DNA of 64,000 nt from a virus (lineage: Duplodnaviria; Caudoviricetes), in IMG/VR virus record IMGVR_UViG_3300022602_000027; one strand, 5' to 3'. The translations under genes and the position numbers were made by a program. Shown here in pieces: positions 6,801 through 33,898 of this stretch (positions are counted from its first letter, which is position 1; each line of letters starts with the position of its first letter). Below the pieces are notes generated by a model. That model saw nothing but the letters and a program-made list of their open reading frames with translations. It had not been told where the DNA came from and made no database searches.

Positions 6801-9800
6801 CTGTATAACCAGGAGCACTATAACTAATGCGTGGCTCAATAATATAAGCAGATGTTAAATCTAATGACGAAGCTATTGCTGTTCCAGGAACAACATGATC
6901 CCATCCGCCAACATAAACTGCTGTACCAATTGTACCAGTTGAGCTGGCACTACCAGTAGCTGTAATAGTAACTGTTGTACCAGCAAACGGTGTTGTACTT
7001 ACTGCAAATGAACTTGTTGTTAAGTTAGTTGCGTTTACAAAATATGTTGTACTAGTATCAACTCCATTAAATGCTGTACCAAACGAAATAGTTTGTCCAG
7101 CTGTTAATGTGTTAGTTGCTGTGATTAAATTATTAACTGTTGACGATGCTGTTACAGTTACAGTTGTAACTGTAGTTGTAGTTACAGCGGCAATGTTAGC
7201 ATTGCTAGCTGTAATAGTTGCACCTGTAGCTAATGTAAATGCACTAGCTGTTACACCTTGTACATAATATGCAGTTAACGCAGACAATCCGCCAACGGCT
7301 GTGCCTAAGAATATTGGCATACCATTGTACATGTTAGCTGTACTTGATACTGTTAATGTATTTTGTGTACCAGTAATTGTTGTACTAGATTGTACAACAG
7401 TTGTGTTTGTTTGCCAAGTTGATCCTGCACCAGAACCACTAATGTTAGCAGTAATGTAAACACCTGCGGCAATTGTACCACCTGTCAAGAACATACCTAC
7501 TGCAATAGTACCAGTTACTGTACCAACAGTTAATACACCACTGCTGTTAATAGAGCTAGTTGACATAGTAGCAGTAGCATTAGTTGTAGCTGTAACTGCA
7601 AATGGTGCAATACTATCGCGAATTACTAGGGCAACTTTAGTAGGATTTGAATATGATAAAATATTAGCATATTGACCTACACCTGTACCTGCAACAATTT
7701 GAACTCTATCTCCATTATAAGCATTAGTTAATGCTGTATCTGTGGCTGCAATAGTAATAGAATAGTTGTTGCTAGTTGATTGTCCAACGTTAGTTGCAGT
7801 AACATAGTTACTACCACCTGTTCCGTTACCATTGTTTAAGTCAATTAGACGTGTTTCAAATAATGCCGCATCACGGAATTCGTCTTGGAAGGCTGCCGCG
7901 TTATAACCTGATCCGCTAATACTTGGAACGCTACTTGTATAGTTAGTACCAGCATTTTGATATTCAAAACGCAATACTTGGTTAGTAGCATCAGTTACAA
8001 CGTTTGTAATTTGTGCTGGGTTAGCACGATTGTTTAATGTACCATATAATGGAACTTCTGTTGTATCAACACCCTCGGCAACAACACCGTATGTACCATA
8101 TGATGAGTTACCGTTAGTAGCACGGATACGTCCACCTAAATCTGCTAGGTAACCTGCATAACTGTAGTAGTTAAACACTGAAACAAGTTCTGATAATGAT
8201 CCTGCACCAGTTGTTTGCCAGCCAATACCGTCACCAATAATACATGTGTAGTCGTTACTAACCATTGAGTGATAACCGCCAGCGTGTAATGCTCCGTCAA
8301 CCTTAGCACCATAACATGCATAGCCAAACATTGTACAGTTTTGTACATAGCAACTACGTGAATAAATCCATGCGTTGCTATCGTTAGGTCCAAATCCTGG
8401 ATCAAGACTTGTATATGCGCCGCCAGTTGGACGTTTAGTTCCAAACGTTGTACTTGCTGTACCTAAGTAACCTGTTAATCCATTCATAGTCATGTTGCGA
8501 ACGCCACATGCATTACGAACTAGCCACATGTTACTTTGTGCTGAACCGTTTACACTATTCAATAAAACTTGTGCATAGCGTAAACTTCTGTAGTTACCTG
8601 TATATTGTAAATCATAAACAATAGCATTTAGATAATAACCAATATCTTGCTGAGTTGCAGCCACTGGATAATAGTAAACTGCGTTCATTGCAGGAGTTGA
8701 TACAGTTGTTAATGCAACAGTAGCACCAGTTGCTCCTGTATTAATATTAGTAAATCCTTCGCTAGTTGTTACTGTAAATGTTGTTGTGCTTGGAACTGAG
8801 GCAACATAGTATGTTGTTCCTGCTGTTAATCCACCTGATACAAATCCAGTATAACTAACAGAGCTACTTGTACTTGCAACTGTTCCTGGATTGAATACTG
8901 CACCACCTACACTAGTTGCAGATACTGTAATTGCTCCAGCACTTGCTGTTAACACATAGTAAACTGTACCAGCAACAATGTTACCAAAACTAGTACCAAA
9001 TATAACACTACCATTAGGAACAATTCCTGTAATAGAGTTAACTGTAATTGTATTACCAGTACTAGTCGATGCTGTTGCAGTTGTTGATGCTGTTGTTGCT
9101 ACAAATTGTACAGGATCATTAACAACAAATCCATGTGCTGTACCTGTTGTAATTATATTTGTACTTGTAGTAGTTGAACTAACATTATATGTATACTGTG
9201 ATGCATAATAAGCAGTAACTTCAGATTGTAAGAATGGAATATTAGCACGTAATATTTCAGCACCTGCAATAATACCTAAATTATTATTATAAGTTATAGT
9301 ACCATTCATCTGCGGTTGAATATACTGACTTGTACCAACATAACTAATAATTGTATTAATATTGTTAGTTGCTGTAGTTAATTGAGTAAGATATGTTGAA
9401 CTGCTTAATGTATTTGCCACTAGTGTTTGCAAATAATTCAATGCCGCTACAGTTACAGTTAATTCGTAACCTTGTACTTTGTAATCTTGTACACGATTAT
9501 AAGCACGACCTGCTTGTACAGTAGCATAATTACTACCTAATAATGTATCAAGGAACATGGCTAACGTTACGTTGAACACGTCACGTTGTGTGTATGATTG
9601 CAAATATGTAAATGCAGTATAGTTTGTATTGATGTAGTTAACAACACTTGTTTGATATGTTGATACACTAGAACTTACTGAACTCCAAGCCGCTAATGCT
9701 GTTGAACTAGCGTTTGTTAGTTGTGGCATACCAATAGTTTGAACAACAATTGACAAACTTGTACCGTTGGTAAATGAAGTTAATGCACTTCCGTTATAAC

Positions 9801-12800
9801 TTGCTGATAATGTAAATGTTGTTGTACTACCTACGCTTTGAACAAAGTAAGGTGTTCCAGAACCAATAATAGTTGATACTAAACCGTTAGTAGTTGTTTG
9901 TGGAATAATAATATCACCTACGCTTAACCCGTGAGCCGCACTGGTTGTAAATGTTGTACCACTAGCGATAGTTGTAATTGTAACTGTTTGCGCACCATTA
10001 GTTAAACCATTAGTGATAAAGTTAGTAACATAACCAATCAACGTATTCATACGTCCAGCATCACGTGAGCTACCTGCTACAGTGCTAGATGTTGGTAATA
10101 CTTGAGTTACGGTTGATTGTAATGAGCTACCATAACTTGTACCTGTAATAACATATGAACCTAGTAATGTTCCAACATATCCAACAGTTGCCGCAAAGGC
10201 TGCGCCAAAGCCTGATGATATTTCAGTGCCATATAGTGCTGAGTAATAACTCATTCCTGCGTTAGCACTCGCCCATGAGCCGCCGTAAGCCATATCATAG
10301 TGGATAGCATCTAAAATGTATCCCATATCGCGTTGAGCTTTTGCAAGACTATAGTTAGGATTAGTTAATAATGAACTATAGTTAGTGTTAAAGTAAGCAA
10401 CACTTTCAGCAATTAAATATGCACGGTTAGCTTCTAACATACCAATAGCAGTACCTGGATCAGATACTGTTACATATTGTACACCACCAGCACTTACTTG
10501 TGTTACGTTAAGAACAATATCATTGGTTGACGATACTCCTCCAATACTTGCTCCGCTAATACGTAGTCGACTACTTGTAGTATAACCAGTACCTGCTGTA
10601 GTTGGAACTACTGTATAAGCATAATATCCGTTACCGTTTGATAAACGTGTAATTGTAAATGCCGCTGTACCATCACCACCACCTGTTACACTTAACGCTG
10701 TCACGTTTGTATATGTAGCTTGCGGTAATGCTAATTGTGGCCATGTAATTTGTGCCGGGGCCGCTGGACCGCCTTGTAAGTATGATGTTAAATCATCAAT
10801 AGTAGTCTGAATTTGTGCAACAGCGCCACTTGCCGCAATTTGTTTCATTTTGTAATACATGAAATTAATTGCACTCAATGTTGGTGGTAGTTCACCACTG
10901 CTTGTTGAACGTAAATTTGTAGCACTTGTATTAGCACGATTAAATGCTCGAGCAATTTGAATAGCATTAAAGTTGCTACCGTACACCATGTCATATGCCA
11001 TGTAAGTTGCAATTAATGTAGCATCACGATTAATTAAACTTGGATTTGCGTATGTCACTGCTTGATAATACTTGTAAACCCATCCTTGTGCATCACTTGC
11101 AATGTTACTGATTAATGGTGTTACTGTGTTAAAGGCTGTTTGTAATGAAACTGATTGTGCTCCAATGTATGGCAATACTTGAGTATCGGGTGATGTTGGA
11201 TTATTAATATAATTAATAACGTTCTGAATACGATCGCCTGCAAAGTTAGAGGCTGCTACGCCACCATCACCGCCTACTGTGACTTGTACAACGTTATTAC
11301 CCGATGTTGCGCTAAAACCTGTTCCTCGTGCAACTGTAATGATTGCCGCTCTTAAGCGAGTTAGTGCGGCTGTATACGCGGCTGTTTGTGCCGCAGTAAT
11401 TTGTAAAATATTTAACGAATAATAAGCCGCACCTGCAATTAAACTTTGTGTGTTACCACCATAAGTTAAATCATATAGTACGCTGTCTAAAATGTAAGTA
11501 ATATCACGAACACCCAATCCGTATTGTGTTGCATTACTTGTAGTAAATCCAGATGTTCCTGGGTTGTTAGCCAAATATTGTAGAGTTTCTGTAATTAAGA
11601 AATTATAATTTTGTTGGATTTGTGTAAATGCAGTTGCATAACCAGTAGTAGTACCAGTTGGATTACTGCCAGAAGTTGTTGCATAGGCTGTGTTAGTTAT
11701 ACTACCTGCACTATAACCTGTTGGTTGTGGCAATTGAATTACAGGAGTACTGCTTAAACCTGTAGCAACTAATTCGTAAAGAATGTTAAAACTACTTTGT
11801 AAGTTAGTAATAGCAGTTGAGCTACCTGTAGTTGCCGCAGGTAAACTTGTAACTTGTGGTGTTGTATTGCCAGTAGTTGGAGTAATTGATGTATTACTCA
11901 TCAATTGTGGCACTAAAGTTTTAATTCTGTTTAGTGCAACCACTGCCTTAGGTACAACTGTAGCTAATGTTACATCAGCTGGGTATGGTTGTACAACTGT
12001 TGATCGTAATTCGTCTCCAAGCAATGCTGTATACGCAGGCACATTGATTGGAAGAATTTCATTATATGTACCAGTTTTAATACTAATTGTAGTAGCAGGA
12101 GTAACTACTGCTGGTAAAATATTATTAGTTGTACCAGCATTTAAACATGCAGTCAAATAGCCAACAAGTGTTTGTGCTTTTGATTGTGCGCCAGACTCAA
12201 CAGTGTAGTTTGTATTAATTTGTTGAATTGCTTTGGTTGTTTGTACAGTACCAGCTATAGTTTGTCCGCCAGATGTTGAACTTGCAAAACTTACACTTCC
12301 TGAACTGCTAGCAGTAACTTGCCATGTACCGTTATAACCAGTTGGTGTCATTCCAGCAATAGTTATATAACTACCAACTGTGAATGCCGCGCCTGTGTAT
12401 GTTACAGTAGCAACTGTGCCCGTGCCACTTGCACCGGTTGTTGCGATTGCTGGATTTAATGTTAATTGATAGTTAGTACTAGGAGCAGTATTACCTAATA
12501 TTGCTGGAATTAATGTTCCTGACAAATAGTTTAAACTTGAAACAAATGGAGTAATATCATAAGCATTAACACCTGAGATATAAGTTGAACCATTTGATGT
12601 AAAGAATGACTGTATATTAGTAGTAGTTTGATATGTACCGTTATGGGTAATATCGTAAATTAAACCTTGAATTACTAAACCACTATCTCTTTCTGCTTTA
12701 CTTTGAACATATGAGTATGTACCAACGTTAGCTGTACCTGTACCAACTGTAAATAATGTTGGAACTAAGGCAAGAGCGTAACTTGTTGCAATTGAGAATG

Positions 12801-15672
12801 TTGTGCCTGAAAGTATTTGAGCAACATAGTATGTTGTACCTGCAACAATATTACCTGAACTTGTTGTGAATACAATTGGCATTCCAACATACATGTTGTT
12901 AGTAGTTGTTTGCGCAACTGTGCTTGTTCCGCCAACTGTAATTACAGTAGTTGCTGTACCAGTTACGTTAAAACTGTATTGGTAATAAATGAAGTTATTT
13001 ACTTCCTTCATCATGAATTGCTTATTAGCAGTCATTAAGAATTTAGTATTAGGATTTAAATAACCGTCTTCAACTTGTTGACAAGCATAACGAATACTTG
13101 CCCATGGTTTATCAACTGTAGTACCTTGACCATTACCTGTTGCGTCTACACCGTTTGTTGCAACAAAAACTAAGTTTTGAATTTGTCCATAATATTGCCA
13201 TGAAGGGCTAGTTCCGTTTACACGTAAAACTTGTCCGTCTGTACCGATTGGTAAACGGGTTGGGCCATTGGCTCCGTAATAGAACATGTCACCTTGTGTA
13301 GTAAGAACAGCTTGTTCTGTACCAGATGCCATTAAGTTCCAATATGTACCAGTTGTGTCGTTATCTGGGCGATTACCTGTGGCACCAACGTGTGCTAATG
13401 TACAAATATAAGTACTTACACCCCATAACACAGTATCACCAAGTACATAAGATGTGCCTGATGCCCATGTTACTGAGATACCAGTCCAACTAACACCACC
13501 TGCTTGGATAACACCGCCTGTTACAGTATTAACTGTAATAATTAAATCGTTAGCTGGGCTAACACCACCTAATGCTGTGCCAAGAACTTTAATAGTATTT
13601 GATGCGGCATAACCAGTACCGCCACCTGTTACGGTAACAGTATATGTTGTATTTTTTGCTAAAACAGTAAAGGTTGCACCTGTACCTGTACCAATAATAT
13701 TAGTTGTTGCAGGACTTGTGTATGTATTATAACTAGGATTCCATTTAACACCAGAATTTAACTGTGCCCAATATGTTGAGAATGGAGGTTTAGGATTAGT
13801 TGTACCAACTGAAGATCCGCTAGCTGTTGTTAATGTAACAGGAGCTCCGCCAACTGTTGTACTTACAGTAAATGTTAATCCGCCTGTTGGGATAGTTAAC
13901 ACATAGTACTGTTGTGTTGTTGATAGTCCACCTAGTGCTGTTCCAAACGTAATTGGTAATCCAGTCACTAAGTTTAGTGTTGATGAAACAGTAATTAAAT
14001 TGTTTACACCAGTAATTGTTTGATTAACAATAGCTGTTCCGCTATAATTTGTTTGCCATGTTGTACCGCTACCACCAGTAATCCAATATGTATTAGCTGT
14101 TAAACCGCCGCCGCTTAAGAACATACCGATAGCTACTGTACCAGTTACTGTTCCGCCAATAGTTAATACACCAATGTTGCTAATAGTTGTATTAGCCATT
14201 GTTGCTGTAGAGTTAGTAGTTGCTGTTGCTGTAACAGTTTGAACAGCATTATCTGCCACTGCTAGATATGTATATCCGTCAACACTAACAACATCACCAA
14301 TTCTATAACCAGTTTGTCCTGATTGTAATCCAGTTGGACTTGCTGACCATGCACCGGCATAAGTTAATCCAGTAGTAAATGGTTGCCAGTAACTTGTTGC
14401 TGTACTAGGATTTTGTCCAGAATTGTTTTGTAGCGCAACGTATGTGTAACCACCGTAGCTTACTACGTCACCTTGTACGTAACTGGTTGCATTTGCCCAT
14501 GAGTTTTGATATTCAAAACCGCCAACAAATAAACTAAAGTTTGCTGAGGCAAATGATGCGCTTGATGTATGAGCAGTTGTACAAATCCAAAGACTTGCAC
14601 CATAAGTTACAATATCATTTACACGATATCGAACACTTGAACCACTCCATGTTCCTTGATAGTATACACCTGCATTAAATGTACTCCATGAGCTTTGATT
14701 AGCTTCTAACCCTAATGTTAGTGTGTTAGCAGATACGTGTGGAGTATTACACACATAAGTATAGCCACCATAACTAACTAAATCATTTAATTTGTAACGA
14801 GTGTTAATAGTCCAAGCGCCAATCCAGTTAATGTTGCTTGAGTATGCTACCCAGTATTCAATAGCAAATGTTAAACCTACAGCAGTACCAGCAGTTGTTG
14901 TGATAGCTGGACCGCCTTGAGTTGCGCTTAAAGTAAATCCTGTGCTTAACCCGTTAGTAGCAATAATATAATATGTACCGTTAGCTACTACTCCAGAACC
15001 TGTGTTTGTACCAGAAATTACAACTGCCATTCCAACGTTTAATGTAGTTGATGAACAGGTAAATGTTCCATTAGCACCAATTGCAGGACTGCTAATTGCA
15101 TTATTCTGACTGTTTTCTAAACCTAACTGGCTTGCACCTGCGACTGTACCGAATACAGTTGCAGTTAATGTTTGAGCTAATGCATAACTTACAGTTGTAG
15201 TTGTACATGCTGTAACTGTGAATGTTCCGTTGAATGCTGTTTGTGCTGAAAATCCAGCAACTGTAATACTTGCACCAACTAGGTAAGGTTGAACAACTTG
15301 TTGAGCAAATGTAATAGTTGCTGTTGAGCCGTTAGCAGTTGCGGCAGATGCAGTTAGAGTAGCTGTGGCGCTAGTACTAGTATGTGCTGTTTCGCACTGA
15401 TAGATAATACCACCATATAAGGCTAAATCGCCAATGTTATATGCTGTAGCATTTAACCATGTACCTCTCCATTGTGATCCGTCTGCAATTAAATTCCATA
15501 AAGTTGGATTAGCAGTTAAATCAGTTGAAAAAGAAGAAGATGCTGAATTAGAAATTACGCAAATATATGTTTTTCCGCCAACTGTTACTATATCGTCGAC
15601 TACATATGATCCGCCTGCTGTCCAAACACCTTGGTATACGGGTTTAATTCTACCTAATTTATATTGCGCCAT
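3874..15672 (-). CDS. Giant modular virion fibre protein (3932 aa)
   Basis: Single ORF with GAGG RBS. N-terminal W...T.Y..GD.V.YGG..Y.C repeats, six helical ..RD..YI.DA..YD...G.N repeats, a beta-helix-like block, W..(I/V)AYG.G.FVA propeller repeats, and a C-terminus shared with 15723..24404. Confidence 0.9.
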   Translation of the reverse strand: MAQYKLGRIKPVYQGVWTAGGSYVVDDIVTVGGKTYICVISNSASSSFSTDLTANPTLWNLIADGSQWRGTWLNATAYNIGDLALYGGIIYQCETAHTSTSATATLTASAATANGSTATITFAQQVVQPYLVGASITVAGFSAQTAFNGTFTVTACTTTTVSYALAQTLTATVFGTVAGASQLGLENSQNNAISSPAIGANGTFTCSSTTLNVGMAVVISGTNTGSGVVANGTYYIIATNGLSTGFTLSATQGGPAITTTAGTAVGLTFAIEYWVAYSSNINWIGAWTINTRYKLNDLVSYGGYTYVCNTPHVSANTLTLGLEANQSSWSTFNAGVYYQGTWSGSSVRYRVNDIVTYGASLWICTTAHTSSASFASANFSLFVGGFEYQNSWANATSYVQGDVVSYGGYTYVALQNNSGQNPSTATSYWQPFTTGLTYAGAWSASPTGLQSGQTGYRIGDVVSVDGYTYLAVADNAVQTVTATATTNSTATMANTTISNIGVLTIGGTVTGTVAIGMFLSGGGLTANTYWITGGSGTTWQTNYSGTAIVNQTITGVNNLITVSSTLNLVTGLPITFGTALGGLSTTQQYYVLTIPTGGLTFTVSTTVGGAPVTLTTASGSSVGTTNPKPPFSTYWAQLNSGVKWNPSYNTYTSPATTNIIGTGTGATFTVLAKNTTYTVTVTGGGTGYAASNTIKVLGTALGGVSPANDLIITVNTVTGGVIQAGGVSWTGISVTWASGTSYVLGDTVLWGVSTYICTLAHVGATGNRPDNDTTGTYWNLMASGTEQAVLTTQGDMFYYGANGPTRLPIGTDGQVLRVNGTSPSWQYYGQIQNLVFVATNGVDATGNGQGTTVDKPWASIRYACQQVEDGYLNPNTKFLMTANKQFMMKEVNNFIYYQYSFNVTGTATTVITVGGTSTVAQTTTNNMYVGMPIVFTTSSGNIVAGTTYYVAQILSGTTFSIATSYALALVPTLFTVGTGTANVGTYSYVQSKAERDSGLVIQGLIYDITHNGTYQTTTNIQSFFTSNGSTYISGVNAYDITPFVSSLNYLSGTLIPAILGNTAPSTNYQLTLNPAIATTGASGTGTVATVTYTGAAFTVGSYITIAGMTPTGYNGTWQVTASSSGSVSFASSTSGGQTIAGTVQTTKAIQQINTNYTVESGAQSKAQTLVGYLTACLNAGTTNNILPAVVTPATTISIKTGTYNEILPINVPAYTALLGDELRSTVVQPYPADVTLATVVPKAVVALNRIKTLVPQLMSNTSITPTTGNTTPQVTSLPAATTGSSTAITNLQSSFNILYELVATGLSSTPVIQLPQPTGYSAGSITNTAYATTSGSNPTGTTTGYATAFTQIQQNYNFLITETLQYLANNPGTSGFTTSNATQYGLGVRDITYILDSVLYDLTYGGNTQSLIAGAAYYSLNILQITAAQTAAYTAALTRLRAAIITVARGTGFSATSGNNVVQVTVGGDGGVAASNFAGDRIQNVINYINNPTSPDTQVLPYIGAQSVSLQTAFNTVTPLISNIASDAQGWVYKYYQAVTYANPSLINRDATLIATYMAYDMVYGSNFNAIQIARAFNRANTSATNLRSTSSGELPPTLSAINFMYYKMKQIAASGAVAQIQTTIDDLTSYLQGGPAAPAQITWPQLALPQATYTNVTALSVTGGGDGTAAFTITRLSNGNGYYAYTVVPTTAGTGYTTSSRLRISGASIGGVSSTNDIVLNVTQVSAGGVQYVTVSDPGTAIGMLEANRAYLIAESVAYFNTNYSSLLTNPNYSLAKAQRDMGYILDAIHYDMAYGGSWASANAGMSYYSALYGTEISSGFGAAFAATVGYVGTLLGSYVITGTSYGSSLQSTVTQVLPTSSTVAGSSRDAGRMNTLIGYVTNFITNGLTNGAQTVTITTIASGTTFTTSAAHGLSVGDIIIPQTTTNGLVSTIIGSGTPYFVQSVGSTTTFTLSASYNGSALTSFTNGTSLSIVVQTIGMPQLTNASSTALAAWSSVSSSVSTYQTSVVNYINTNYTAFTYLQSYTQRDVFNVTLAMFLDTLLGSNYATVQAGRAYNRVQDYKVQGYELTVTVAALNYLQTLVANTLSSSTYLTQLTTATNNINTIISYVGTSQYIQPQMNGTITYNNNLGIIAGAEILRANIPFLQSEVTAYYASQYTYNVSSTTTSTNIITTGTAHGFVVNDPVQFVATTASTTATASTSTGNTITVNSITGIVPNGSVIFGTSFGNIVAGTVYYVLTASAGAITVSATSVGGAVFNPGTVASTSSSVSYTGFVSGGLTAGTTYYVASVPSTTTFTVTTSEGFTNINTGATGATVALTTVSTPAMNAVYYYPVAATQQDIGYYLNAIVYDLQYTGNYRSLRYAQVLLNSVNGSAQSNMWLVRNACGVRNMTMNGLTGYLGTASTTFGTKRPTGGAYTSLDPGFGPNDSNAWIYSRSCYVQNCTMFGYACYGAKVDGALHAGGYHSMVSNDYTCIIGDGIGWQTTGAGSLSELVSVFNYYSYAGYLADLGGRIRATNGNSSYGTYGVVAEGVDTTEVPLYGTLNNRANPAQITNVVTDATNQVLRFEYQNAGTNYTSSVPSISGSGYNAAAFQDEFRDAALFETRLIDLNNGNGTGGSNYVTATNVGQSTSNNYSITIAATDTALTNAYNGDRVQIVAGTGVGQYANILSYSNPTKVALVIRDSIAPFAVTATTNATATMSTSSINSSGVLTVGTVTGTIAVGMFLTGGTIAAGVYITANISGSGAGSTWQTNTTVVQSSTTITGTQNTLTVSSTANMYNGMPIFLGTAVGGLSALTAYYVQGVTASAFTLATGATITASNANIAAVTTTTVTTVTVTASSTVNNLITATNTLTAGQTISFGTAFNGVDTSTTYFVNATNLTTSSFAVSTTPFAGTTVTITATGSASSTGTIGTAVYVGGWDHVVPGTAIASSLDLTSAYIIEPRISYSAPGYTATSRTITSGTYGSLAYGAGRFVAVANTGTATSYSTNGTSWSSGGALPSSQSWSNVVYGGGQGATATAVIGGFGGAGAVLTAVVGTGTSATQIVSVTVVNGGYNYTTPPTIVFVGGGGSGATATCTVLNGAIQTVTMTINGSGYTSAPTVTAVTSILSSATMNAWGKNYFSAPTVTFSQPQSLTPTAYPVSGAVTNGTYYQVAASGRIYLCTASGTTSSTTPTFDYTTSTGYTNVTNGTATFTYVATQASATPNYSNGAVTSLNVTNYGYGYTSVPSITILDTSALFLAMSTTASTGTYFAYNIVSTLGSSWTALGGTAYISVLNLYGLAYGNGVYVAVGGASGTATAASSSNPIAASNWISRTLTSLSAGYYSAVAYGAGGNSSGTFIAINNGGNVTSISNNGQSWSAGGTLPSSTTWTSIAYGNNKFVALATTGAVAYTVNYGTTWTANPACAGTNVSVLSSAYTWTKVYYSQGLFFAIAQGNVAATSPDGIVWTLRTMPSSTNWSAIAFGNPSNLSSTVIGVQPIWVAVSSTSGTAAASIRTGATPLGRMKVLSNAITEIRFVEPGSGFAKGNVTATTTSTNLITTDDTTNLSTSLANNQPIEFSIASGSLTTNTTYYVIGSSVTSTQFQVTATAGSTTPVTLTTTSPTGMIYTAGAIVTQFDPNKVITAPTRVRMSDGVLANPSFTNRGLNNATATANTAGDGYGDIYQNSSFINVSNLYALPTAGANVQFASITGSAQWYKLVQVTNILGVAGAYTATFQINPALSTLLAPAHGNLITTRLKYSQVRLTGHDFLYIGTGNQTQTNYPNVVPGNAIQANQSYATGGGRVFFTSTDQDGNFNVGNLFGVQQSTGTATLNASAFALSGLQSLTLGNLSVGTGSATITQFSTDPYFTANSDNIVPTQKAIKSYITAQIGGGSSSLNVNTLTSGQIYIANNTISNTTGNQIYVTSKMTFTGGIDGAPVALMFFGQR

Positions 15673-15694
15673 GTTATTTTATTCCTCTTGATAA

Positions 15695-24809: not shown

Positions 24810-25610
24810 TTAGCTTATTTCAACGTAACTTAAAACAGCATCCATACTACTAGTAACGTTTGACCAAATCATTACGTTAGTACTTGCTCCTAATACTAAT
24901 CTTTCTCCGCCATTAATAACTCTTGCGCTAGTGTTTGGTGGTATTACAATATTTTGTACAAAATAAGCTGTAGTGTTTGCCACTGTGTCTTGCAGTTGTA
25001 CACTTGCAACAATAATTGTTGCAGTTATGTTTGTTAAACTTAATCCAATAGCTGTTGTTGTTGCACTAGAGTTAGTTGTTAAAATACAAGGACTAAGTGT
25101 TCCAGCTACAGTCATAGATCCAGTACCAGTACTTGCAAAAGTAATAGTTGAAGTTGTTCCTGATGTAACATAATATGTACCATTATATCCTGTAGGAGTC
25201 ATGCCAACTATGTTTACAAGAATGCCTGTTGGAAACGGTGCTACTGATTGTGTAGCAAATGTTATTGTAGCAATGTTTAAAGTGTAAGTTATGCCACTCG
25301 GAGTTCCGGTTGTTGTTACTACACCTGTACCGCCTAGTGTAGTTGACAAAGTAAATGTAGTTGATCCGTTAGTAGCAATAATATAATAAGTTGTTGGATT
25401 TGTATAACCGGTAATGGTAACGCCGCCTAGTGTTCCACTAATAGTTACTGTTTGTCCAACAGCTAAGTTAGTGTTGCTACTGCAACTAAATTGTCCGCCA
25501 ATACCTGTAACAGTTACACCGCTTAAAGTACTGCTAGCTCCAGATGCCGCTGTAGGAGTTATTTGAGTTCCTACACTTGCTAGTAATTTATTTTTAAATA
25601 GAGTTGTCAT
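24810..25610 (-). CDS. Small virion protein carrying about 150 aa of inserted modules (266 aa)
   Basis: Core MTTLFKNK..SVGT / TTTAIGLSLTN...GERLVL...LSYVEIS split by two modules found in other genes. Confidence 0.75.
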   Translation of the reverse strand: MTTLFKNKLLASVGTQITPTAASGASSTLSGVTVTGIGGQFSCSSNTNLAVGQTVTISGTLGGVTITGYTNPTTYYIIATNGSTTFTLSTTLGGTGVVTTTGTPSGITYTLNIATITFATQSVAPFPTGILVNIVGMTPTGYNGTYYVTSGTTSTITFASTGTGSMTVAGTLSPCILTTNSSATTTAIGLSLTNITATIIVASVQLQDTVANTTAYFVQNIVIPPNTSARVINGGERLVLGASTNVMIWSNVTSSMDAVLSYVEIS

Positions 25611-25613
25611 TGA

Positions 25614-26790: not shown

Positions 26791-26796
26791 TATTTA
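26791..26796 (-). promoter_or_regulatory. Late promoter motif TAAATA
   Basis: Intergenic, upstream of the structured leader. Confidence 0.6.
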
Positions 26797-26820
26797 GCTG
26801 TTTTGATTTTTAAGGGTTGA

Positions 26821-28818: not shown

Positions 28819-28832
28819 CGTAGTCTCCTAGC

Positions 28833-30581
28833 TTAGGCGTCAAAACCTAATAGTGCTGTGACTGTTTTACCGTAAGGTACTGGACTAGTAAACTGTAGAT
28901 AGTTACCAGTATATGAAATTGTAGGTTCAGTAAGAGTTAAAGAAGTTAACACTGGAATAGTACTAGTAATAACTGCTTTACTAATAGTTACATTTAACAA
29001 TGCATCAGTTGTAGGATCTGTATTATAACTTAAAACACAAGTAGGTACAGTAAATGTTAATCCGCTTGGACTACCTGCTGTTGTAGATATACCTGTTGTT
29101 GCTCCAGGATATGATCCTAATGTAAATGTAGTAGTTCCATTAGTAGCAATAATATAGTATGTGCCGTTAGATACAACTCCTGATCCACCATTAGTACCAC
29201 TAATTGTAACTGCTTGATTAACAGCCAATGTAGTTGATGTACAACTAAATGCACCAGCGTTGCTGGTAATTGAAACTGTAGATAGTGTTGTTGAATTAGG
29301 TATGCTAGCCGATCCACTTACTACTGCGCCAAGAATATTTACAGATGGATAAATTGCTGTTCCACTAGTAACTGTTCCTGCGGTAATCATAGATCCTGTA
29401 GCCACACATGTGTAACTTACACTTGAACTTGTGCTAGCGGTTACTGTATATTTTCCATTATAGCCTGTTGGAGTAAATCCTGCAACTACAATAGTATCAC
29501 CTATAGCAAATGGATTACCAGTTTGAGAAGCAAATCCAATAGTTGCTGTTACACCTGTACCAGTAATAGTTTCACTGGCTGTTAATGCTGTTGAGCTAAC
29601 TGTATAACTTGTAGCTGTTAAAGGTACAGGACTTCCACTAGTACCACTAGCAATTGATTGGCTTTGACTTAATGTATAAGTTCCCACACCGCCTGTACCT
29701 GAGCCAAGAGCTGAGATATAAGTACCTGGAGTCATATTGCTACCAGTTACTACCATACCTATAGTAATGATGCTTGATGTAACTGCTGTAACGTTTAAAG
29801 TTGTACTGCTTGCAGTAGTATAACCTGTAAATGCCGCTGAGTTTGCGGCTACAATAGTTTGTCCAGAAATACCAGTACCACTTAGTGTCATTCCAGTAGT
29901 AGGTGCTGATCCACTTGTTACTGTTAATGTAGTACCTGTAGTTGTTGATGGACCACTACCGTTAGAAATAAAACCAGTAAATGAAACTGATCCACTGCTA
30001 CTAGTACTTGTTCCAATTAAACTTGTACTAAAAAATATTTGTGTCGATGAAACTGTTGCCGCTTGACTAACAGTTCCAATATATGCTTCGCCAGCAATCG
30101 ATGGGCTAGCAGTTACTGAATAGTTTGCTCCGGATAATTGAAGAACGTTTTCAACAACTACTAAAATATTTTGTCCACCGTACTGTCCATTTGATGCACC
30201 GCCACTTTGCGGAATATCAGTTGAGTAGTAAAGTTTATTAGGAATGTATGCTGAATTTAAAGGACCAAATAAAGTAGTTTGTCCATCACCTGCACCTAAA
30301 TTTTGTTGTATAATTGCAGTAGGTTCTTTAAATCTTAAAGGTCTCCAGTTGGCTGTTGCGCTCCCTGTTGAACCTTGATATACTTCAACTTCGTTAGTTG
30401 TTGTATTGTATCGCATTGCACCTAAGTATGTTCCGTTTCGTTGAGACGTTGTTCCGTTAGGTAGTACTAGACTTCCTAAATTAACAGGACTTACGAACAC
30501 ATTGGTATTAGACACATCTGAATAAACAGTTGTATCGTTTGGTGTTCTACGATTAATGTTTTGGCGTTTTAAATATCTCAT
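28833..30581 (-). CDS. Virion protein with multiple inserted modules (582 aa; start corrected to MRYLKRQ)
   Basis: ATG at 30581 overlaps the upstream stop (TAATG); G.MRYN....EVEVY motif plus inserted modules. Confidence 0.75.
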   Translation of the reverse strand: MRYLKRQNINRRTPNDTTVYSDVSNTNVFVSPVNLGSLVLPNGTTSQRNGTYLGAMRYNTTTNEVEVYQGSTGSATANWRPLRFKEPTAIIQQNLGAGDGQTTLFGPLNSAYIPNKLYYSTDIPQSGGASNGQYGGQNILVVVENVLQLSGANYSVTASPSIAGEAYIGTVSQAATVSSTQIFFSTSLIGTSTSSSGSVSFTGFISNGSGPSTTTGTTLTVTSGSAPTTGMTLSGTGISGQTIVAANSAAFTGYTTASSTTLNVTAVTSSIITIGMVVTGSNMTPGTYISALGSGTGGVGTYTLSQSQSIASGTSGSPVPLTATSYTVSSTALTASETITGTGVTATIGFASQTGNPFAIGDTIVVAGFTPTGYNGKYTVTASTSSSVSYTCVATGSMITAGTVTSGTAIYPSVNILGAVVSGSASIPNSTTLSTVSITSNAGAFSCTSTTLAVNQAVTISGTNGGSGVVSNGTYYIIATNGTTTFTLGSYPGATTGISTTAGSPSGLTFTVPTCVLSYNTDPTTDALLNVTISKAVITSTIPVLTSLTLTEPTISYTGNYLQFTSPVPYGKTVTALLGFDA

Positions 30582-30907
30582 TATACTGGTAGTGTACTTA
30601 CAACAATTGATAGGTATGATGTTGTTCCTGATTGAACCCAAATAGCATCTCCGTTACCTAATACTAATTTTTCTTGATCTAAACTTACAGTTTCAGTTGC
30701 TGGAATTAGTAACGCATTTATAATTATGTTAGCAGTTGTGTTCGATTGCCCGCTAGGTACTGCCCATACTGTTACTGTATCTGCTGTGCTGGCATTACTA
30801 TTACAAATGATTATAGAAGTAATGGCATTGCCGATACTAGGACTAGTTACAGTTGGTAATGTTACTGCTGTTGCTGAAGTTGTTATTTGTTGTGCGTTTA
30901 ATGCCAT
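30581..30907 (-). CDS. Small beta-rich virion protein (108 aa)
   Basis: AAGGA RBS; ITSIIICN...I.A.ET.SLD.EKLVL..GD.I pattern; paralog of 3520..3858. Confidence 0.7.
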   Translation of the reverse strand: MALNAQQITTSATAVTLPTVTSPSIGNAITSIIICNSNASTADTVTVWAVPSGQSNTTANIIINALLIPATETVSLDQEKLVLGNGDAIWVQSGTTSYLSIVVSTLPV

Positions 30908-30916
30908 AATCTGTCC

Positions 30917-32320
30917 TTATAGTAAAATACTTAGCAGTACTGCTCGTTTTCTACTTATTAATTCATCTGCTGTTTGTACTGTACTATTTACAATATACAA
31001 ACCTGTGCGTCCTGGTCCAACAGTAGAACTTGAATACATTTGTGTGCTAGAACTCATTGTACCACTGTTATAACTTAATGTTGCTTGATTGTCAAATCTT
31101 GTATAAGCATTAACTTCAATAGTGCCACTATTTGCAGTCAATATTAAATTGTTACTGCTAATATCGTTAATAGTGTCACCATATATACGAACACTACCTA
31201 CTGTTAAACTTCCGCTGGCGCTAGTTGTAGTTCCGCTTGAGGCAGTTCCTGTAACTGCGGCAAAGTATCCAATTGGATTTGTTATGACAGGATTGTTTAC
31301 ATTAAACTGAATTTGTCCTGTTGCGGCAGTTGTACCTGTAATTGCAACACTTCCAAACGTACTGTTGGTAAATGTTAATCCAGTTGTTGTTCCTGCTGTA
31401 GTTGCTAATGCTACATTACCTAAAGTTTGTAGTGTAAATGTATTGTATCCGTTAGTTGCTGAAATTTTATAAGTTGATGTTACTGGATAGTTGACAATAC
31501 CACCTGATCCAGTTAGTGTTCCACTTATTGTAATTTGCATTCCAACAAACAAGGAAGCGTTACTACAGAAAAATTGTCCGGCAGTTCCGGTAATTATAAC
31601 TCCACTAAGAGTTGGAGTTAAAGGAAATTGTATAATATTAGTAAGAGCTTGTCCCCAATTAGAGCCTGTATAACTGCTGGCTACATAATTGTTCAAGTAC
31701 TGAATATTTGGAATATGATAATTTGATAATCCTAAACTAGCATAATTGTATGCGCTAGAATTTAATGTATTTGTTACACCATCATATACTGCACCAGAAT
31801 TAACAATAGACAATGCGTAAGCTCCGCCTTGCAAATCAAATGCTAAGTCGCCGCTTGTGTCTGTTGTAATTGTTCTTAATTGAAGTGCGTTTAAAACTTG
31901 TGCGCCATCTGTTGCGCCTGTTCTTAGTACAAATGTACCTGTGCCAGTTAATGGACTAACAGTTCCTGATTCGCCAGGAATTGTTGAGTCGTAATGTTTA
32001 ACTGTTTCACTATAAAAAATTTGCGCGGGCAATGCTGTGCCGCGATCAATTTGAAAACCTGCTTCATATGGTGATGTTGTAATACCATTAGTAAGCAAAC
32101 CTGTATTAATTTCAAAAAATGGATCAGAAACTGTAGTAGTAGTTGATTCAATTGTAGTTGTTACACCTTTGACATCTAAGTTACCCCAAATAGTAACTTT
32201 TCCATAATTGCTACCTGCACCTCTCCCTACTGCGGTACCGGTAGTATCAAAGATGATATTGCCGCCTGGCTTTACCTGTAGACTATAATCACCGTTGCTG
32301 ACTTTTACAATTTTTGACAT
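30917..32320 (-). CDS. Putative virion structural protein (467 aa)
   Basis: GNLDVKG.TTTIESTT..V.DP motif seen in phage fibre/neck proteins; carries one inserted module. Confidence 0.7.
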   Translation of the reverse strand: MSKIVKVSNGDYSLQVKPGGNIIFDTTGTAVGRGAGSNYGKVTIWGNLDVKGVTTTIESTTTTVSDPFFEINTGLLTNGITTSPYEAGFQIDRGTALPAQIFYSETVKHYDSTIPGESGTVSPLTGTGTFVLRTGATDGAQVLNALQLRTITTDTSGDLAFDLQGGAYALSIVNSGAVYDGVTNTLNSSAYNYASLGLSNYHIPNIQYLNNYVASSYTGSNWGQALTNIIQFPLTPTLSGVIITGTAGQFFCSNASLFVGMQITISGTLTGSGGIVNYPVTSTYKISATNGYNTFTLQTLGNVALATTAGTTTGLTFTNSTFGSVAITGTTAATGQIQFNVNNPVITNPIGYFAAVTGTASSGTTTSASGSLTVGSVRIYGDTINDISSNNLILTANSGTIEVNAYTRFDNQATLSYNSGTMSSSTQMYSSSTVGPGRTGLYIVNSTVQTADELISRKRAVLLSILL

Positions 32321-32341
32321 TAGGAATCCTGTTAGGTTATC

Positions 32342-32361
32342 AGGGGGAGTTTCCTCCCCCT
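32342..32361 (-). terminator. GC-rich hairpin AGGGGGAG-GAAA-CTCCCCCT (terminator or stabilising stem; no clear U tract)
   Basis: Perfect 8-bp stem with a GNRA loop, 10 nt after the stop of the 508-aa gene. Confidence 0.5.
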
Positions 32362-32371
32362 TGATTAACTA

Positions 32372-33898
32372 TTAAGCGTTATCTAGTGTTACTGAAACGT
32401 TAGCTGTTGGAGTTGTTAAATTCCATTGTGCCGCTTGTCCAGTAGTCCATTGTGTACCTGAAATTGGAGTTAAGTATGCCTTACGGTTTGTTAACTTAGA
32501 TACAGCATAGATACCACCAGCACTATCAGTAGCAATGATTGCCATTTGACCTGCTGTCAAACTGCTTTCGCCAACTGCTGTTAATTTGCATAGTGTACCT
32601 GGATAGCTTCCGCCTTGTTGAATAACACGGAATGTACGTGAACCTTCTTGTTTGATGATGTCACAATCGGTATACAATGTTCCGCCAATGTTAGCATTAG
32701 CAATAATCTGCTCGTAACGTCCTGTGTAACCACTTGTTACTTGAGCTGCCAATGTAGCTGTAGCTGTAGCTGAACCAGAACTTACTGTTACAACTGGTGT
32801 GTAACCAGCGATTGTAACTGCATCACTAACTGTGTAAGTGAATGTTAAGCTACCAAAACCGTTACCAGCAACAATTGCCAATGCACTTGTACCTGCAATA
32901 GCGTTTGCTTGAGTTGCATATAATGTACCGCCAGTAGTTGTTAAACTTGGACCACCAATGTAATATACTGTACCAACTGTTGGAACTGATCCACCAATTG
33001 TACCTGTACCTGCGGCTGAACCACCAACTGTAATTGCTGTACCAACTGGTAAAGCTGTAGTTGTTGCTGTATAGCTAACTGTTGTACCTGTTGCATAAGC
33101 AAATGATGCTAGTGCGGCTGAGTTAGGTTGCGCTGTTGTTGATTGTAGTGTACCAACCCCTGCACCAGTAACTGAAGCACTTAATGTAACTACTTTAGTT
33201 GCTGTGTTAACAGATTTGATATAGTAACCTGTACCACCTGTCAAACCACCAATTGACTGATTTGGTGTAAACTTCATACCAACAACCATTTCATCAATTG
33301 AACTAACTGTAATGTTACCACTACCGTCAACTGCTGTGATGCTCATTGATTTTGTATCAGCTGAATCAATATAACCATCACCGCCATTGTTAGTTAATGA
33401 ATAACTTGTAATTGTGAATGATGTTAATGTGAATGTGGCGGCTACTGTAAATGTGCTACCTACCGCTGTCAATGCTGACGCACCCGATGTTGCACCAGTC
33501 CATGTACCGCCTGAAGTTACTGAGTTAACTGTTGTAATAACACCAGAACTGTTTGTTGTAACGTTTAGTACTGCTGTACCACCACCTTGAGCACCTGAAC
33601 CTGTTACTGAAACAGTAAATGTGCTTGAGTTTGGATAACCAGAACCGCCACTTGTTACGCTAGCCGCGGCCGCTGTTAATACTGCAACTGCTGTAGCTTG
33701 TACACCGTTAGCAAGTTGTGGACCAAAGATTGATAAACTTGGAGCACCAGATGTATAACCTGTTAGTGTACCGCCTGTTGCAAGACTTGCAATATTTGAA
33801 CCACCAATGCCGGCATCAACTGCGGCAGAGCGGCTATATGTACCTGATGCTGACGCATTACGTGAGCCAAAGTACTTTTTATTAAGAGGACGTCCCAT
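32372..33898 (-). CDS. Putative head/neck decoration or fibre protein (508 aa, MGRPLNKKYFG family)
   Basis: AAGGAG RBS; short N-terminus and IIKQEGSRTFRV...KLTNRKA C-terminus around T/G/A-rich inserted modules. Confidence 0.7.
   Translation of the reverse strand: MGRPLNKKYFGSRNASASGTYSRSAAVDAGIGGSNIASLATGGTLTGYTSGAPSLSIFGPQLANGVQATAVAVLTAAAASVTSGGSGYPNSSTFTVSVTGSGAQGGGTAVLNVTTNSSGVITTVNSVTSGGTWTGATSGASALTAVGSTFTVAATFTLTSFTITSYSLTNNGGDGYIDSADTKSMSITAVDGSGNITVSSIDEMVVGMKFTPNQSIGGLTGGTGYYIKSVNTATKVVTLSASVTGAGVGTLQSTTAQPNSAALASFAYATGTTVSYTATTTALPVGTAITVGGSAAGTGTIGGSVPTVGTVYYIGGPSLTTTGGTLYATQANAIAGTSALAIVAGNGFGSLTFTYTVSDAVTIAGYTPVVTVSSGSATATATLAAQVTSGYTGRYEQIIANANIGGTLYTDCDIIKQEGSRTFRVIQQGGSYPGTLCKLTAVGESSLTAGQMAIIATDSAGGIYAVSKLTNRKAYLTPISGTQWTTGQAAQWNLTTPTANVSVTLDNA

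What the first reader, a model, noticed from the sequence alone, without database searches (positions are those of the whole stretch)
7369..33300. A shared pool of 60-80 aa modules inserted into at least seven different virion genes
The same beta-rich cassettes recur inside otherwise unrelated proteins (coordinates approximate). Module A (G.F.C....L.VG..V.ISGT...G...TYYIIATNG..TFTLS...T.G...GLTF): 14865-15080, 25285-25520, 29053-29277, 31365-31600, plus a variant in the 508-aa gene. Module B (ATITFA.Q...P..VG..I.V.G.TP.GYNG...VT..T..SV.F...G...GTV): 15142-15330, 12245-12420, 17349-17553, 25097-25275, 29370-29553. Module C (T.T...LTV..VTGTIAVGM.L.GG.IAAG..I..G.G.TW......TITG): 14008-14214, 7369-7582, 23116-23306, 29600-29990. 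They interrupt host motifs cleanly. B and A split one HTS-LGLE.NQ-W repeat; C sits at the same TATT/N.L.TVSST junction twice; B splits a TWS/LP.S..W propeller blade. Two copies of A in different genes match at 41/47 nt (14954-15000 vs 29140-29186), which suggests recent exchange. This looks like a genome-wide system for decorating the virion by domain insertion.
Basis: partly seen in the sequence, partly recalled or inferred. Interest (0 to 1): 0.7.

Follow-up and report, generated by a model that had tools for sequence, protein, structure and literature searches.

The report
Plug-in barrel domains in phage fibres
A giant freshwater phage builds its tail-fibre proteins from three families of small plug-in domains inserted into loops of other domains. 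Related phages carry, lack or swap these plug-ins at the same fixed sites, a vivid and largely undescribed case of the known modular way phages vary their host-binding gear.

Summary
The core observation is real. Three 65-85 aa beta-rich modules (A, B, C) recur in five structural genes of a Rak2-like jumbo myophage. A sixth gene has only a weak hit, so the count is not seven. Cross-gene BLASTP E-values reach 1e-22 with composition correction.

AlphaFold2 models them as autonomous domains. A and B are six-stranded, E1-FCCH-like barrels, the fold of the phi92 endosialidase barrel and of the outer domains on some siphophage tail tubes. C is a small beta-rich domain of unresolved fold. None matches Pfam. 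Module A alone defines about 700 metagenomic protein clusters.

The modules are nested: B and A split one CBM5/12 repeat, and B splits a propeller blade.

Orthologs refute "always at the same sites":
- Giant 2 relatives at 76-79% identity lack C exactly.
- In the gp467 family about 100 of 119 members are bare, and one site holds A in some and C in another.
- Two ports in giant 1 are empty, or hold C, B, two C copies or a ~310 aa cassette.

Module and host histories are decoupled.

Not supported: recent exchange within this genome (copies are 47-69% identical in DNA) and any dedicated insertion machinery.

Most likely these are accessory adhesion or decoration domains shuffled by recombination. 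This is a new variant of a known kind.

The parts
3874..15672 (-). Giant 1: a 3932-aa tail-fibre-like protein and host of B, A, C and A' modules. It has six CBM5/12 repeats at the N-terminus.
   Evidence: ORF. Pfam CBM_5_12 E 4e-29 with 6 stretches. The C-terminus resembles cyanophage and pelagiphage tail-fibre-like proteins. 120 orthologs of 2894-5450 aa were listed.
15130..15372 (-). Module B (giant 1 aa 101-181), inserted between HTS and LGLE of CBM5/12 repeat 2.
   Evidence: pLDDT 94-97. VIA Z 9.4, 9.2 and 8.4 to the UBA1 FCCH domain and the phi92 endosialidase barrel. Absent at this site in giant 2, P0213, P0232, P0239 and P0240.
14860..15087 (-). Module A (giant 1 aa 196-271), inserted between LGLE.NQ.. 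and the closing W strand of the same CBM5/12 repeat.
   Evidence: HMM and BLAST hits. Present only in the P0121-P0137 clade. All 30 more distant orthologs, and giant 2, have zero residues at this site.
14005..14220 (-). Module C (giant 1 aa 485-556) at port 1, just upstream of an A' module.
   Evidence: pLDDT 91-96. In orthologs the same site is empty, or holds B, C or two C copies.
13795..14004 (-). A' module (giant 1 aa 557-626), a diverged A-type unit that begins NNLITVSST.
   Evidence: Iterated A profile E 3e-17. pLDDT 87-94. In P0191 and P0200 a C module is nested inside this unit.
12244..12429 (-). Module B, second copy in giant 1 (aa 1082-1143).
   Evidence: HMM E 1.8e-24. Conserved at about this position in many orthologs.
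7369..7584 (-). Module C (giant 1 aa 2697-2768) at port 2, between VTATT and an A' unit.
   Evidence: HMM E 1.6e-26. In orthologs the site is empty (P0133-P0135) or holds a ~310 aa alternative cassette (P0121, P0129, P0132, P0137).
6943..7362 (-). Two A' modules downstream of port 2 (giant 1 aa 2771-2840 and 2846-2910).
   Evidence: The second unit is supported by the iterated A profile. The first rests on the sequence pattern and on the alignment.
12733..12936 (-). A' module (giant 1 aa 913-980).
   Evidence: Iterated A profile E 6e-17.
15723..24404 (-). Giant 2: a 2893-aa paralog of giant 1 and host of C, four tandem A' units and B.
   Evidence: BLASTP giant 1 vs giant 2 gives E 3e-70 to 1e-4 over several blocks. 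Pfam CBM_5_12 E 1.7e-34.
23106..23318 (-). Module C in giant 2 (aa 363-433), nested in a small C-like unit. This site is polymorphic among close orthologs.
   Evidence: Present in the window and L081. Precisely absent in L001, L082 and L083, which are 76-79% identical overall.
18405..19211 (-). Four tandem A' units in giant 2 (aa 1732-2000).
   Evidence: Iterated A profile E 1e-21 to 1e-23, each covering model positions 1-70. The seed profile already hits the last unit at E 1.7e-05.
17349..17597 (-). Module B in giant 2 (aa ~2270-2352), inserted between TWS and LPTSSTW of a propeller-type repeat.
   Evidence: HMM E 1.8e-25. Sequence context. The paralogous region of giant 1 lacks it (block lengths).
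24810..25610 (-). gp266: a small jelly-roll-like virion protein with A (25281-25517) and B (25095-25280) inserted after its first strand.
   Evidence: AF2 gives A pLDDT 96-97. The 183-aa orthologs carry only B. The 201-aa relatives carry A in a different loop. The core matches pelagiphage and roseophage structural proteins.
28833..30641 (-). gp602: a fibre-like protein with a C-like unit (29658-29840), B (29370-29555) and A (29049-29276).
   Evidence: HMM E 1e-35 for A and 1e-29 for B. The C-like unit scores only 3e-05 in a 13-protein search. phrog_38233 (tail fiber) hits aa 258-335.
30917..32320 (-). gp467: a conserved jumbo-phage structural protein with A inserted at aa 241-318 (31367-31600).
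   Evidence: HMM E 7e-33. In 119 family members about 100 are bare, 7 have A at this site, P0408 has C at this site, 7 have A at another site and 2 have B.
33146..33322 (-). Possible A'-like unit in gp508 (aa 193-251). This assignment is weak.
   Evidence: Found only with the iterated A profile, at 14 bits and E 2.6e-05 against 13 proteins. Not significant in the six-frame search.
30581..30907 (-). gp108: a probable bare paralog of the gp266 core, with no insert.
   Evidence: BLASTP vs gp266 gives 31% over 55 aa, E 0.002. Alignment A1.

Best explanation
The tail-fibre and baseplate-region proteins of this freshwater jumbo myophage are mosaics. Three sequence-distinct families of small autonomous beta domains are plugged into surface loops of scaffold domains. 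Modules A (with its diverged form A') and B are six-stranded FCCH-like barrels. Module C is a smaller beta-rich domain. The scaffolds are CBM5/12 repeats, propeller blades, a jelly-roll core, and even other modules.

A domain that folds on its own can be nested in a loop without breaking the host fold (inferred). Over evolutionary time the modules are gained, lost and replaced at a limited set of permissive ports. This happens by recombination among phage genes, most of it between genomes and not recent within this one.

The most likely function (inferred, not shown) is accessory adhesion or decoration. On this reading the modules are outward-facing lectin-like or contact domains that add avidity or alter specificity for host surface polymers. 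They would be the counterpart of Ig-like domains, of CBM 'bricks' on lactococcal phages, and of the endosialidase barrel.
For: **Shown here**
1. Homology of copies across genes, with composition-corrected E-values down to 1e-22.
2. Confident independent folds. A has pLDDT 96-97 in gp266. B has 94-97 and C 91-96 in giant 1.
3. The fold of B matches the UBA1 FCCH domain (Z 9.4, rmsd 2.8, 80 aa), the phi92 endosialidase barrel (Z 8.4, rmsd 2.1, 75 aa, 20% identity) and a phage FCWL1 head-to-tail protein (Z 8.2). A hits the same set at Z 5.5-6.7.
4. Nesting is visible in alignments. Orthologs without the module read straight through the host motif, for example HTS...LGLENDQSKW in P0239 and P0213.
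5. Presence and absence differ among orthologs:
   - C in giant 2 is missing in three relatives at 76-79% identity.
   - A at site 2 of giant 1 occurs only in one clade.
   - About 100 of 119 gp467 relatives are bare.
6. Different occupants use the same port:
   - C, B, two C copies or nothing at port 1.
   - C, nothing or a ~310 aa cassette at port 2.
   - A or C at the gp467 site.
7. Module and host histories are decoupled. The gp266 and P0006 cores are 78.5% identical but their B modules only 41%. The gp266 and P0040 cores are 41% identical but their A modules 70.5%.
8. Module A occurs in 704 clusters with 1-18 copies per protein. Its partners include a pectate-lyase-type tailspike and a GDSL esterase, which are typical receptor-binding protein contexts.
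9. Contigs from an independent 2012 run span the module-bearing genes intact, so they are not assembly chimeras.

**From the literature**
- FCCH domains face outward on siphovirus tail tubes (PMC13576161).
- CBM bricks are inserted in several virion proteins and bind the host (PMC6669499).
Against: - No binding or surface exposure has been measured, so the function is inferred from fold, context and analogy.
- Fold matches for A (Z about 6) and C (Z 5-6) are in the range where unrelated barrels also score.
- The direction of each event (gain or loss) rests on parsimony, not on a rooted reconciliation.
- No recombination junction signature could be read at the one polymorphic site examined, because the flanks are about 20% diverged.
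- All copies within this genome are old, so ongoing exchange was not caught.
Confidence: 0.7

Rival explanations
1. The modules were all present in ancestral proteins and have been inherited vertically. Today's pattern then reflects only differential deletion, with no insertion or exchange.
For: - Copies in this genome are old, at 47-69% nt identity.
- B at site 1 of the giant protein is present in most of the 120 orthologs.
- No recombination signature was found at the giant 2 C site.
Against: - Only 17 of 119 gp467 relatives carry any module. They carry three different families, and A sits at two different sites.
- The same port holds unrelated occupants in different orthologs.
- The B modules of gp266 and P0006 are 41% identical inside cores that are 78.5% identical, which points to replacement.
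- A modules from unrelated proteins are 53-77% identical to each other.
Confidence: 0.1
2. The modules are structural rather than adhesive. On this reading they act as spacers, oligomerisation or inter-fibre contact domains, or folding nuclei that set the geometry of the very long fibres.
For: - Module A is unusually conserved, with 68% mean column identity across unrelated hosts and invariant G, F, C, Y and L positions. That fits a conserved protein-protein or folding role.
- A' units occur in long tandem runs.
- On siphovirus tubes no ligand is established for the FCCH domain (PMC13576161).
Against: - Many orthologs function without the modules, so they are dispensable for assembly.
- Turnover at ports resembles receptor-binding variation.
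- The closest phage structural match, the endosialidase barrel, belongs to a host-glycan-directed enzyme.
Confidence: 0.15
3. The modules are cargo of a dedicated mobile mechanism that actively inserts them. Candidates would be an intein-like or homing-endonuclease-associated element, or a shufflon or other cassette-switching system.
For: - Insertions are clean and in frame at recurring ports.
- Alternative cassettes occupy the same site.
Against: - No Pfam hit of any kind in the modules or the small host genes.
- The fold is an FCCH-like barrel, not a HINT fold.
- No flanking endonuclease or recombinase ORFs lie within the gene block.
- No long, near-identical direct or inverted DNA repeats were found.
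- Paralogous copies are old.
Confidence: 0.04
4. The similarity is only low-complexity T/G/S-rich convergence, and the modules are not real domains.
For: The proteins are very rich in T, G, S and A. tblastn with the low-complexity filter on found no A or B matches in cultured phages.
Against: - Composition-corrected E-values reach 1e-22.
- Hydrophobic and aromatic positions are conserved.
- AF2 confidence is 90-97.
- 489 clusters match the A profile at E <= 1e-10 in 1.84 billion representatives.
Confidence: 0.01

Closest known systems
E1 FCCH-like beta-barrel domains on phage virion proteins, such as the outward-facing FCCH domain of PF08813 siphovirus tail tube proteins (PMC13576161), and the inserted barrel of phage endosialidases (phi92, PDB 4hiz)
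   Same: - The same six-stranded closed barrel fold. B scores Z 9.4 to UBA1 FCCH, 8.4 to the phi92 barrel and 6.2 to the Mystique tail tube domain. A scores Z 5.5-6.7.
- Both are accessory domains added to a structural scaffold.
- By my recollection, the barrel is itself an inserted domain both in E1 enzymes and in the endosialidase. I did not check this here.
   Different: - There is no sequence membership in PF16190, or in any Pfam family, even at E <= 10.
- Here two separate sequence families with this fold, plus a third module, are nested at many sites in at least five proteins of one myophage. In the tail tube case one copy is fused at a terminus.
CBM 'bricks' decorating lactococcal 936 and other siphophages, including evolved Dit, Tal, the MTP extension and the neck passage structure (Hayes et al. 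2019, PMC6669499)
   Same: [quoted passage not shown] The inferred role is accessory host adhesion.
   Different: - Different phage type (a freshwater jumbo myovirus) and different folds and families.
- Nesting goes deeper here: modules sit inside CBM5/12, propeller blades and other modules.
- Binding is experimentally shown for the lactococcal CBMs and not for A, B or C.
Ig-like domain promiscuity on tailed-phage structural proteins (Fraser et al. 2006, cited from memory; T4 Hoc, PMC10385173)
   Same: Small beta domains are spread across unrelated structural proteins of many phages. They are dispensable in orthologs and are thought to give weak surface adhesion.
   Different: - The fold is not Ig.
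- By my recollection, Ig-like domains are mostly terminal additions, sometimes produced by frameshifting. These modules are internal loop insertions with alternative occupants at one port.
Giant tail-fibre-like proteins of Rak2-like jumbo phages and T4-like cyanophages
   Same: - The major capsid protein is 67-72% identical to those of Phosso, CBB, BF and fHe-Yen9-04.
- Giant-protein orthologs occur on contigs up to 378,379 bp, which is the length of phage CBB.
- The C-terminal domain matches cyanophage tail-fibre-like proteins.
   Different: The cultured relatives examined mostly lack the modules at the N-terminal ports. P0239 has none at sites 1-3 and one A at aa 595-666. I found no paper describing the port and cassette variation.

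Membership tests
E1_FCCH (PF16190) / FCCH-like barrel | [quoted passage not shown] | tested here: met
   B: VIA Z 9.4 (9mc4_A 214-296, rmsd 2.8, 80 aa) and 9.2 (4p22_B). A: Z 6.5 (4p22_B) and 6.0 (9mc4_A). The A values lie in a range where chance barrels also score.
E1_FCCH (PF16190) / FCCH-like barrel | Sequence match to the Pfam model | tested here: not met
   No PF16190 hit for any of the 35 A or 18 B sequences at E <= 10. The only lead was by language-model features, an Atlas viral cluster with PF16190 in 73% of members, scoring 0.92 and 0.89.
CBM_5_12 (PF02839), the host domain | Match above the Pfam gathering score, and the fold of chitin-binding domains | tested here: met
   E 4e-29 and 1.7e-34 with 6 stretches in each giant protein. 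Model residues 388-435 match chitinase ChBDs at Z 6.0-7.4 and 26-35% identity. Foldseek probability is 1.00 to the tandem CBMs of chitin deacetylases.
Inserted accessory adhesion modules of phage virion proteins (evolved-Dit / CBM-brick type) | An autonomous module nested in a loop of a structural protein and absent from some orthologs | tested here: met
   Alignments. AF2 confidence.
Inserted accessory adhesion modules of phage virion proteins (evolved-Dit / CBM-brick type) | The module binds host cell-surface saccharide | not testable with these tools
   This needs GFP-fusion binding assays or glycan arrays with an identified host.
Ig-like phage decoration domains | Immunoglobulin-type beta-sandwich fold, or a Pfam Big_2, I-set or fn3 match | tested here: not met
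   No such Pfam hits. The folds are barrels.
Inteins / HINT-type protein-splicing insertions | HINT fold with N-terminal Cys/Ser/Thr and a C-terminal His-Asn plus nucleophile | tested here: not met
   No Pfam intein or Hint hit. The fold is an FCCH-like barrel. Module borders are T/A/G-rich linkers without HN.
Rak2-like jumbo myoviruses (genomic context) | T4-type major capsid protein closest to those of this group | tested here: met
   tblastn gives 72% identity to Sinorhizobium phage Phosso and 67% to CBB, BF and fHe-Yen9-04 over the full length. phrog_138 E 2.5e-98.

The most novel reading that the evidence does not exclude
The ports are not just tolerated loops. They would be sites of frequent, possibly facilitated, in-frame cassette exchange among co-infecting freshwater phages, for example through conserved T/A-rich linker codons acting as recombination handles. 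The A, B and C pool would then work as a natural domain-insertion library that retunes host range on ecological time scales. Modules A, B and C would be new glycan-binding families.
Probability: 0.12. Interest if true: 0.85.

Novelty: new variant of a known kind. Interest (0 to 1): 0.6.

Why it matters
Host range in phages is set largely by fibre and baseplate proteins, and how these diversify is a central question for phage ecology and engineering.

This locus and its roughly 120 giant-protein and 119 gp467 orthologs give a natural, densely sampled record of which loops accept a foreign domain. Those loops lie in CBM5/12 repeats, a propeller, a jelly-roll and the barrels themselves. The record also shows which domains can be plugged in, with interchangeable occupants at the same port.

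That has two uses. It defines three uncharacterised, Pfam-less domain families for binding studies; module A alone spans about 700 clusters. It also offers design rules for domain insertion into receptor-binding proteins.

The general principle of modular, decorated virions is already known, so this is an extension rather than a new kind of biology.

Tried and rejected
1. **tblastn against cultured phages.** gp266 and gp467 gave no A or B matches. Only the gp266 core matched. The low-complexity filter probably hides the modules, so this says little.
2. **Profile-profile comparison of A, B and C.** A vs B gave E 0.002 but probability 13%. A vs C and B vs C gave nothing. The families are treated as separate by sequence even though A and B share a fold.
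3. **Profile searches of PDB sequences.** Nothing below E 0.1.
4. **Pfam at E <= 10 for every A and B member.** Only scattered sub-threshold hits.
5. **Foldseek on the whole gp266 model.** No hit at E <= 0.001. VIA-align was needed to find matches.
6. **Fold of C.** The best matches are Z 5.3-6.3 (PF0907, Pbp11, phage Bridgette, RimM) and remain unresolved.
7. **Junction microhomology at the giant 2 C indel.** The flanks are too diverged to read.
8. **Long DNA repeats or inverted repeats.** None that could drive switching.
9. **Laying contigs of four freshwater runs over 13750-33700 to catch module-skipping forms.** Only short-sided joints at 85% likeness appeared, probably from relatives or repeats. 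No clean module indel was seen. Contigs drop rare variants, so this is not evidence of absence.
10. **Thioester idea for the invariant Cys of module A.** Rejected because the neighbouring Gln is not conserved.
My iterated profile aligns each of them to the full model, so I read them as tandem. I did not test this further.

Full report
**Context**

The window comes from a jumbo myovirus. Its major capsid protein (34639-35814, minus strand) is 72% identical to that of Sinorhizobium phage Phosso. It is 67% identical to those of the Rak2-like phages CBB, BF and fHe-Yen9-04 (phrog_138 E 2.5e-98).

From 3.8 to 37 kb all genes run on the minus strand:
- two giant paralogous proteins, giant 1 (3932 aa) and giant 2 (2893 aa);
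- gp126, gp266, gp351, gp665, gp602, gp108, gp467 and gp508.

Evidence that these are virion proteins:
- Both giants carry six CBM5/12 repeats, their only Pfam hits.
- Their C-termini resemble the tail-fibre-like proteins of cyanophages and pelagiphages.
- The gp266 core matches proteins annotated as virion structural proteins in pelagiphages and roseophages.

The same DNA occurs almost unchanged in freshwater and lake metagenomes of at least 17 studies from 2012 to 2023. Contigs of an independent 2012 run span the module-bearing genes with 0-3 differences. The mosaic genes are therefore not assembly artefacts.

Yes, in its core. Every listed A and B copy, and three of the four C copies, translate in frame at the stated places. 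They match one another across different genes with composition-corrected BLASTP E-values of 1e-5 to 3e-22 at 42-58% identity.

Seed HMMs recover exactly these copies. Iterating the A profile adds a diverged subtype that I call A'. It has four tandem units in giant 2 and at least four in giant 1.

Three details need correcting:
- The fourth 'C' (gp602) is only a remote C-like unit.
- The hit in gp508 is weak.
- This leaves five firm host genes plus one doubtful one, not seven.

The 'N.L.TVSST' junction motif is simply the start of an A' module. So C twice sits directly upstream of an A' unit.

**What are the modules?**

AlphaFold2 models them as compact, confident domains. A has pLDDT 96-97 in gp266. 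In giant 1 residues 1-640, B has 94-97, C 91-96 and A' 87-94.

*Fold of B.* Structure comparison places B in the six-stranded barrel fold of the E1 FCCH domain:

| Match | Z | rmsd (Å) | Aligned (aa) | Identity |
|---|---|---|---|---|
| UBA1 FCCH | 9.4 | 2.8 | 80 | 12% |
| phi92 endosialidase barrel | 8.4 | 2.1 | 75 | 20% |
| Phage FCWL1 head-to-tail protein | 8.2 | 2.2 | 75 | 17% |

Weaker matches are the Mystique tail tube outer domain and two tailspike depolymerases.

*Fold of A.* A hits the same set at Z 5.5-6.7.

*Fold of C.* C is a small beta-rich domain without a clear relative (best Z 5.3-6.3).

*Sequence relationships:*
- The three families are not demonstrably related to each other.
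- They match no PDB sequence.
- They match no Pfam family even at E <= 10.

*Spread of module A.* A profile of module A finds 704 clusters at E <= 0.001, and 489 at E <= 1e-10, among 1.84 billion representatives. The proteins range from 135 to 6076 aa and carry 1-18 copies. Partners include a pectate-lyase-type tailspike, a GDSL esterase and a Fib_succ_major domain. Another partner has collagen-like repeats followed by five tandem A copies.

A recent paper describes FCCH domains facing outward on siphovirus tail tubes as one of several optional additions to PF08813 proteins (PMC13576161).

**Are they inserted?**

The alignments answer this directly.

*Giant 1, CBM5/12 repeat 2.*
- The repeat reads ...YQCETAHTS | B | SQLGLENSQ.. 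| A | YWVAYS...
- Orthologs without A read GLENDLSKWTLF with zero residues at that point.
- Proteins without B (giant 2, P0213, P0232, P0239, P0240) read HTS...LGLENDQSKW uninterrupted.
- The model keeps the secondary-structure elements of the intact neighbouring repeat on either side of the inserts.

*Giant 2.* B lies between TWS and LPTSSTW of a WxxIAYGNN propeller-type repeat. The paralogous stretch of giant 1 is continuous.

*gp266.* This is a ~110 aa jelly-roll-like core (Z about 7 to nucleoplasmin, TNF and CBM folds) with A and B after its first strand.
- Thirty-five or more orthologs of 183 aa have only B there.
- A 201-aa group has A in a different hairpin.
- gp108 in the same window looks like the bare core.

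*Nesting in other modules.* In P0191 and P0200 a C module sits inside an A' module.

**Do orthologs always carry them at the same sites?**

No. This is the main result.

- **Giant 2.** Orthologs L001, L082 and L083 (76-79% identical) lack C exactly. L081 and the window have it.
- **Giant 1, site 2.** A occurs only in the P0121-P0137 clade.
- **Giant 1, port 1** (before the first A'). It is empty in P0138 and P0213. It holds C in the window clade, B in P0137, P0142, P0143, P0146 and P0149, and two C copies in P0159.
- **Giant 1, port 2** (before the A' at aa 2771). It holds C in most close orthologs and nothing in P0133-P0135. In P0121, P0129, P0132 and P0137 it holds a different ~310 aa multi-unit cassette. 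The flanks are 70-88% identical, and the distribution does not follow overall similarity.
- **gp467 family** (119 proteins):

| Content | Members |
|---|---|
| Bare (300-381 aa) | about 100 |
| A at the window's site | 7 |
| C at that same site | 1 (P0408) |
| A at a second site | 7 |
| B | 2 |

- **Decoupled histories**:

| Pair | Core identity | Module identity |
|---|---|---|
| gp266 vs P0006 | 78.5% | B, 41% |
| gp266 vs P0040 | 41% | A, 70.5% |

Across unrelated hosts, A modules are 53-77% identical to the gp266 copy.

**What is not supported**

*Recent exchange inside this genome.* The 41/47 nt match is real but encodes the most conserved peptide of A. Full-length paralogous copies share 47-69% of nucleotides and 34-63% of residues. 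Orthologous copies in relatives are much closer. There are no long near-identical direct or inverted repeats.

*A dedicated insertion mechanism.* I found no sign of one:
- no intein features;
- no endonuclease or recombinase genes in the block;
- no conserved border signal that I could read.

A look for module-skipping forms in metagenome contigs was uninformative.

**Mechanism**

Shown:
- autonomous folding;
- loop nesting;
- optional presence;
- alternative occupancy of fixed ports;
- decoupled module and host histories;
- wide spread of A in receptor-binding-type proteins.

Inferred:
- The modules are exchanged by recombination among phage genes, mostly between genomes and over long times.
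- Ports are loops where an insert does not disturb the scaffold.
- The modules face outward and act as accessory adhesion or decoration domains.

Analogies supporting the functional inference:
- the endosialidase barrel;
- outward FCCH domains on tail tubes (PMC13576161);
- CBM bricks on lactococcal phages, where binding was demonstrated (PMC6669499);
- Ig-like domains such as those of Hoc (PMC10385173).

A structural role as spacer or contact domain is the main functional rival. It fits the high conservation of A.

**Verdict**

It is wrong about recent exchange and unproven about a 'system'.

The principle of modular decoration of virions is known. The new elements are three Pfam-less module families, the depth of nesting, and the well-sampled port-and-cassette variation in freshwater jumbo phages. 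I class this as a new variant of a known kind, with interest 0.6.

Noticed in passing
window 26821-28818 (gp665): inserts at 28192-28428 and 27301-27990: The L001 ortholog is only 360 aa and 76% identical. The window's gp665 has two extra internal blocks, aa 131-209 and aa 277-506. These blocks are not A, B or C and have no Pfam hit. The same insertion habit therefore extends to other, larger domains.
   Followed up: partly
P0121, P0129, P0132, P0137 at the site matching window 7369-7584: In place of the 72-aa C module, these giant 1 orthologs carry a ~310 aa cassette made of several small C-like or other units. P0121 is the closest N-terminal relative of the window yet shares this cassette with the distant P0137. 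That suggests recombination between lineages.
   Followed up: partly
window 30581-30907 (gp108) and 24810-25610 (gp266): gp108 appears to be a bare paralog of the gp266 core (31% over 55 aa, E 0.002). The core family also occurs as 'structural protein' in Pelagibacter podophages, Roseobacter phages and Yersinia phage YerA41.
   Followed up: partly
window 30581-30641 (5' end of the gp602 ORF): The ORF as listed starts at a TTG and overlaps gp108 by 60 nt. The L001 ortholog lacks the first 20 residues. The real start is therefore probably the ATG at residue 21 (MRYLKRQ...), directly at the end of gp108.
   Followed up: no
module A copies, e.g. window 25281-25517: Module A has one invariant cysteine (the G.F.C motif) in all 35 aligned copies from unrelated proteins. 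That is unusual for a presumably extracellular virion domain. The neighbouring Gln is not conserved, so a thioester is unlikely, and the role of the Cys is unexplained.
   Followed up: partly
whole window: Near-identical DNA, holding 54-100% of sampled 31-mers, is present in freshwater, lake-water and freshwater-sediment metagenomes of at least 17 studies dated 2012-2023. This points to a persistent and widespread freshwater phage lineage.
   Followed up: partly
My iterated profile aligns each of the four units to the full model, which fits simple tandem repeats. Real nesting of C inside A' does occur in the orthologs P0191 and P0200.
   Followed up: partly
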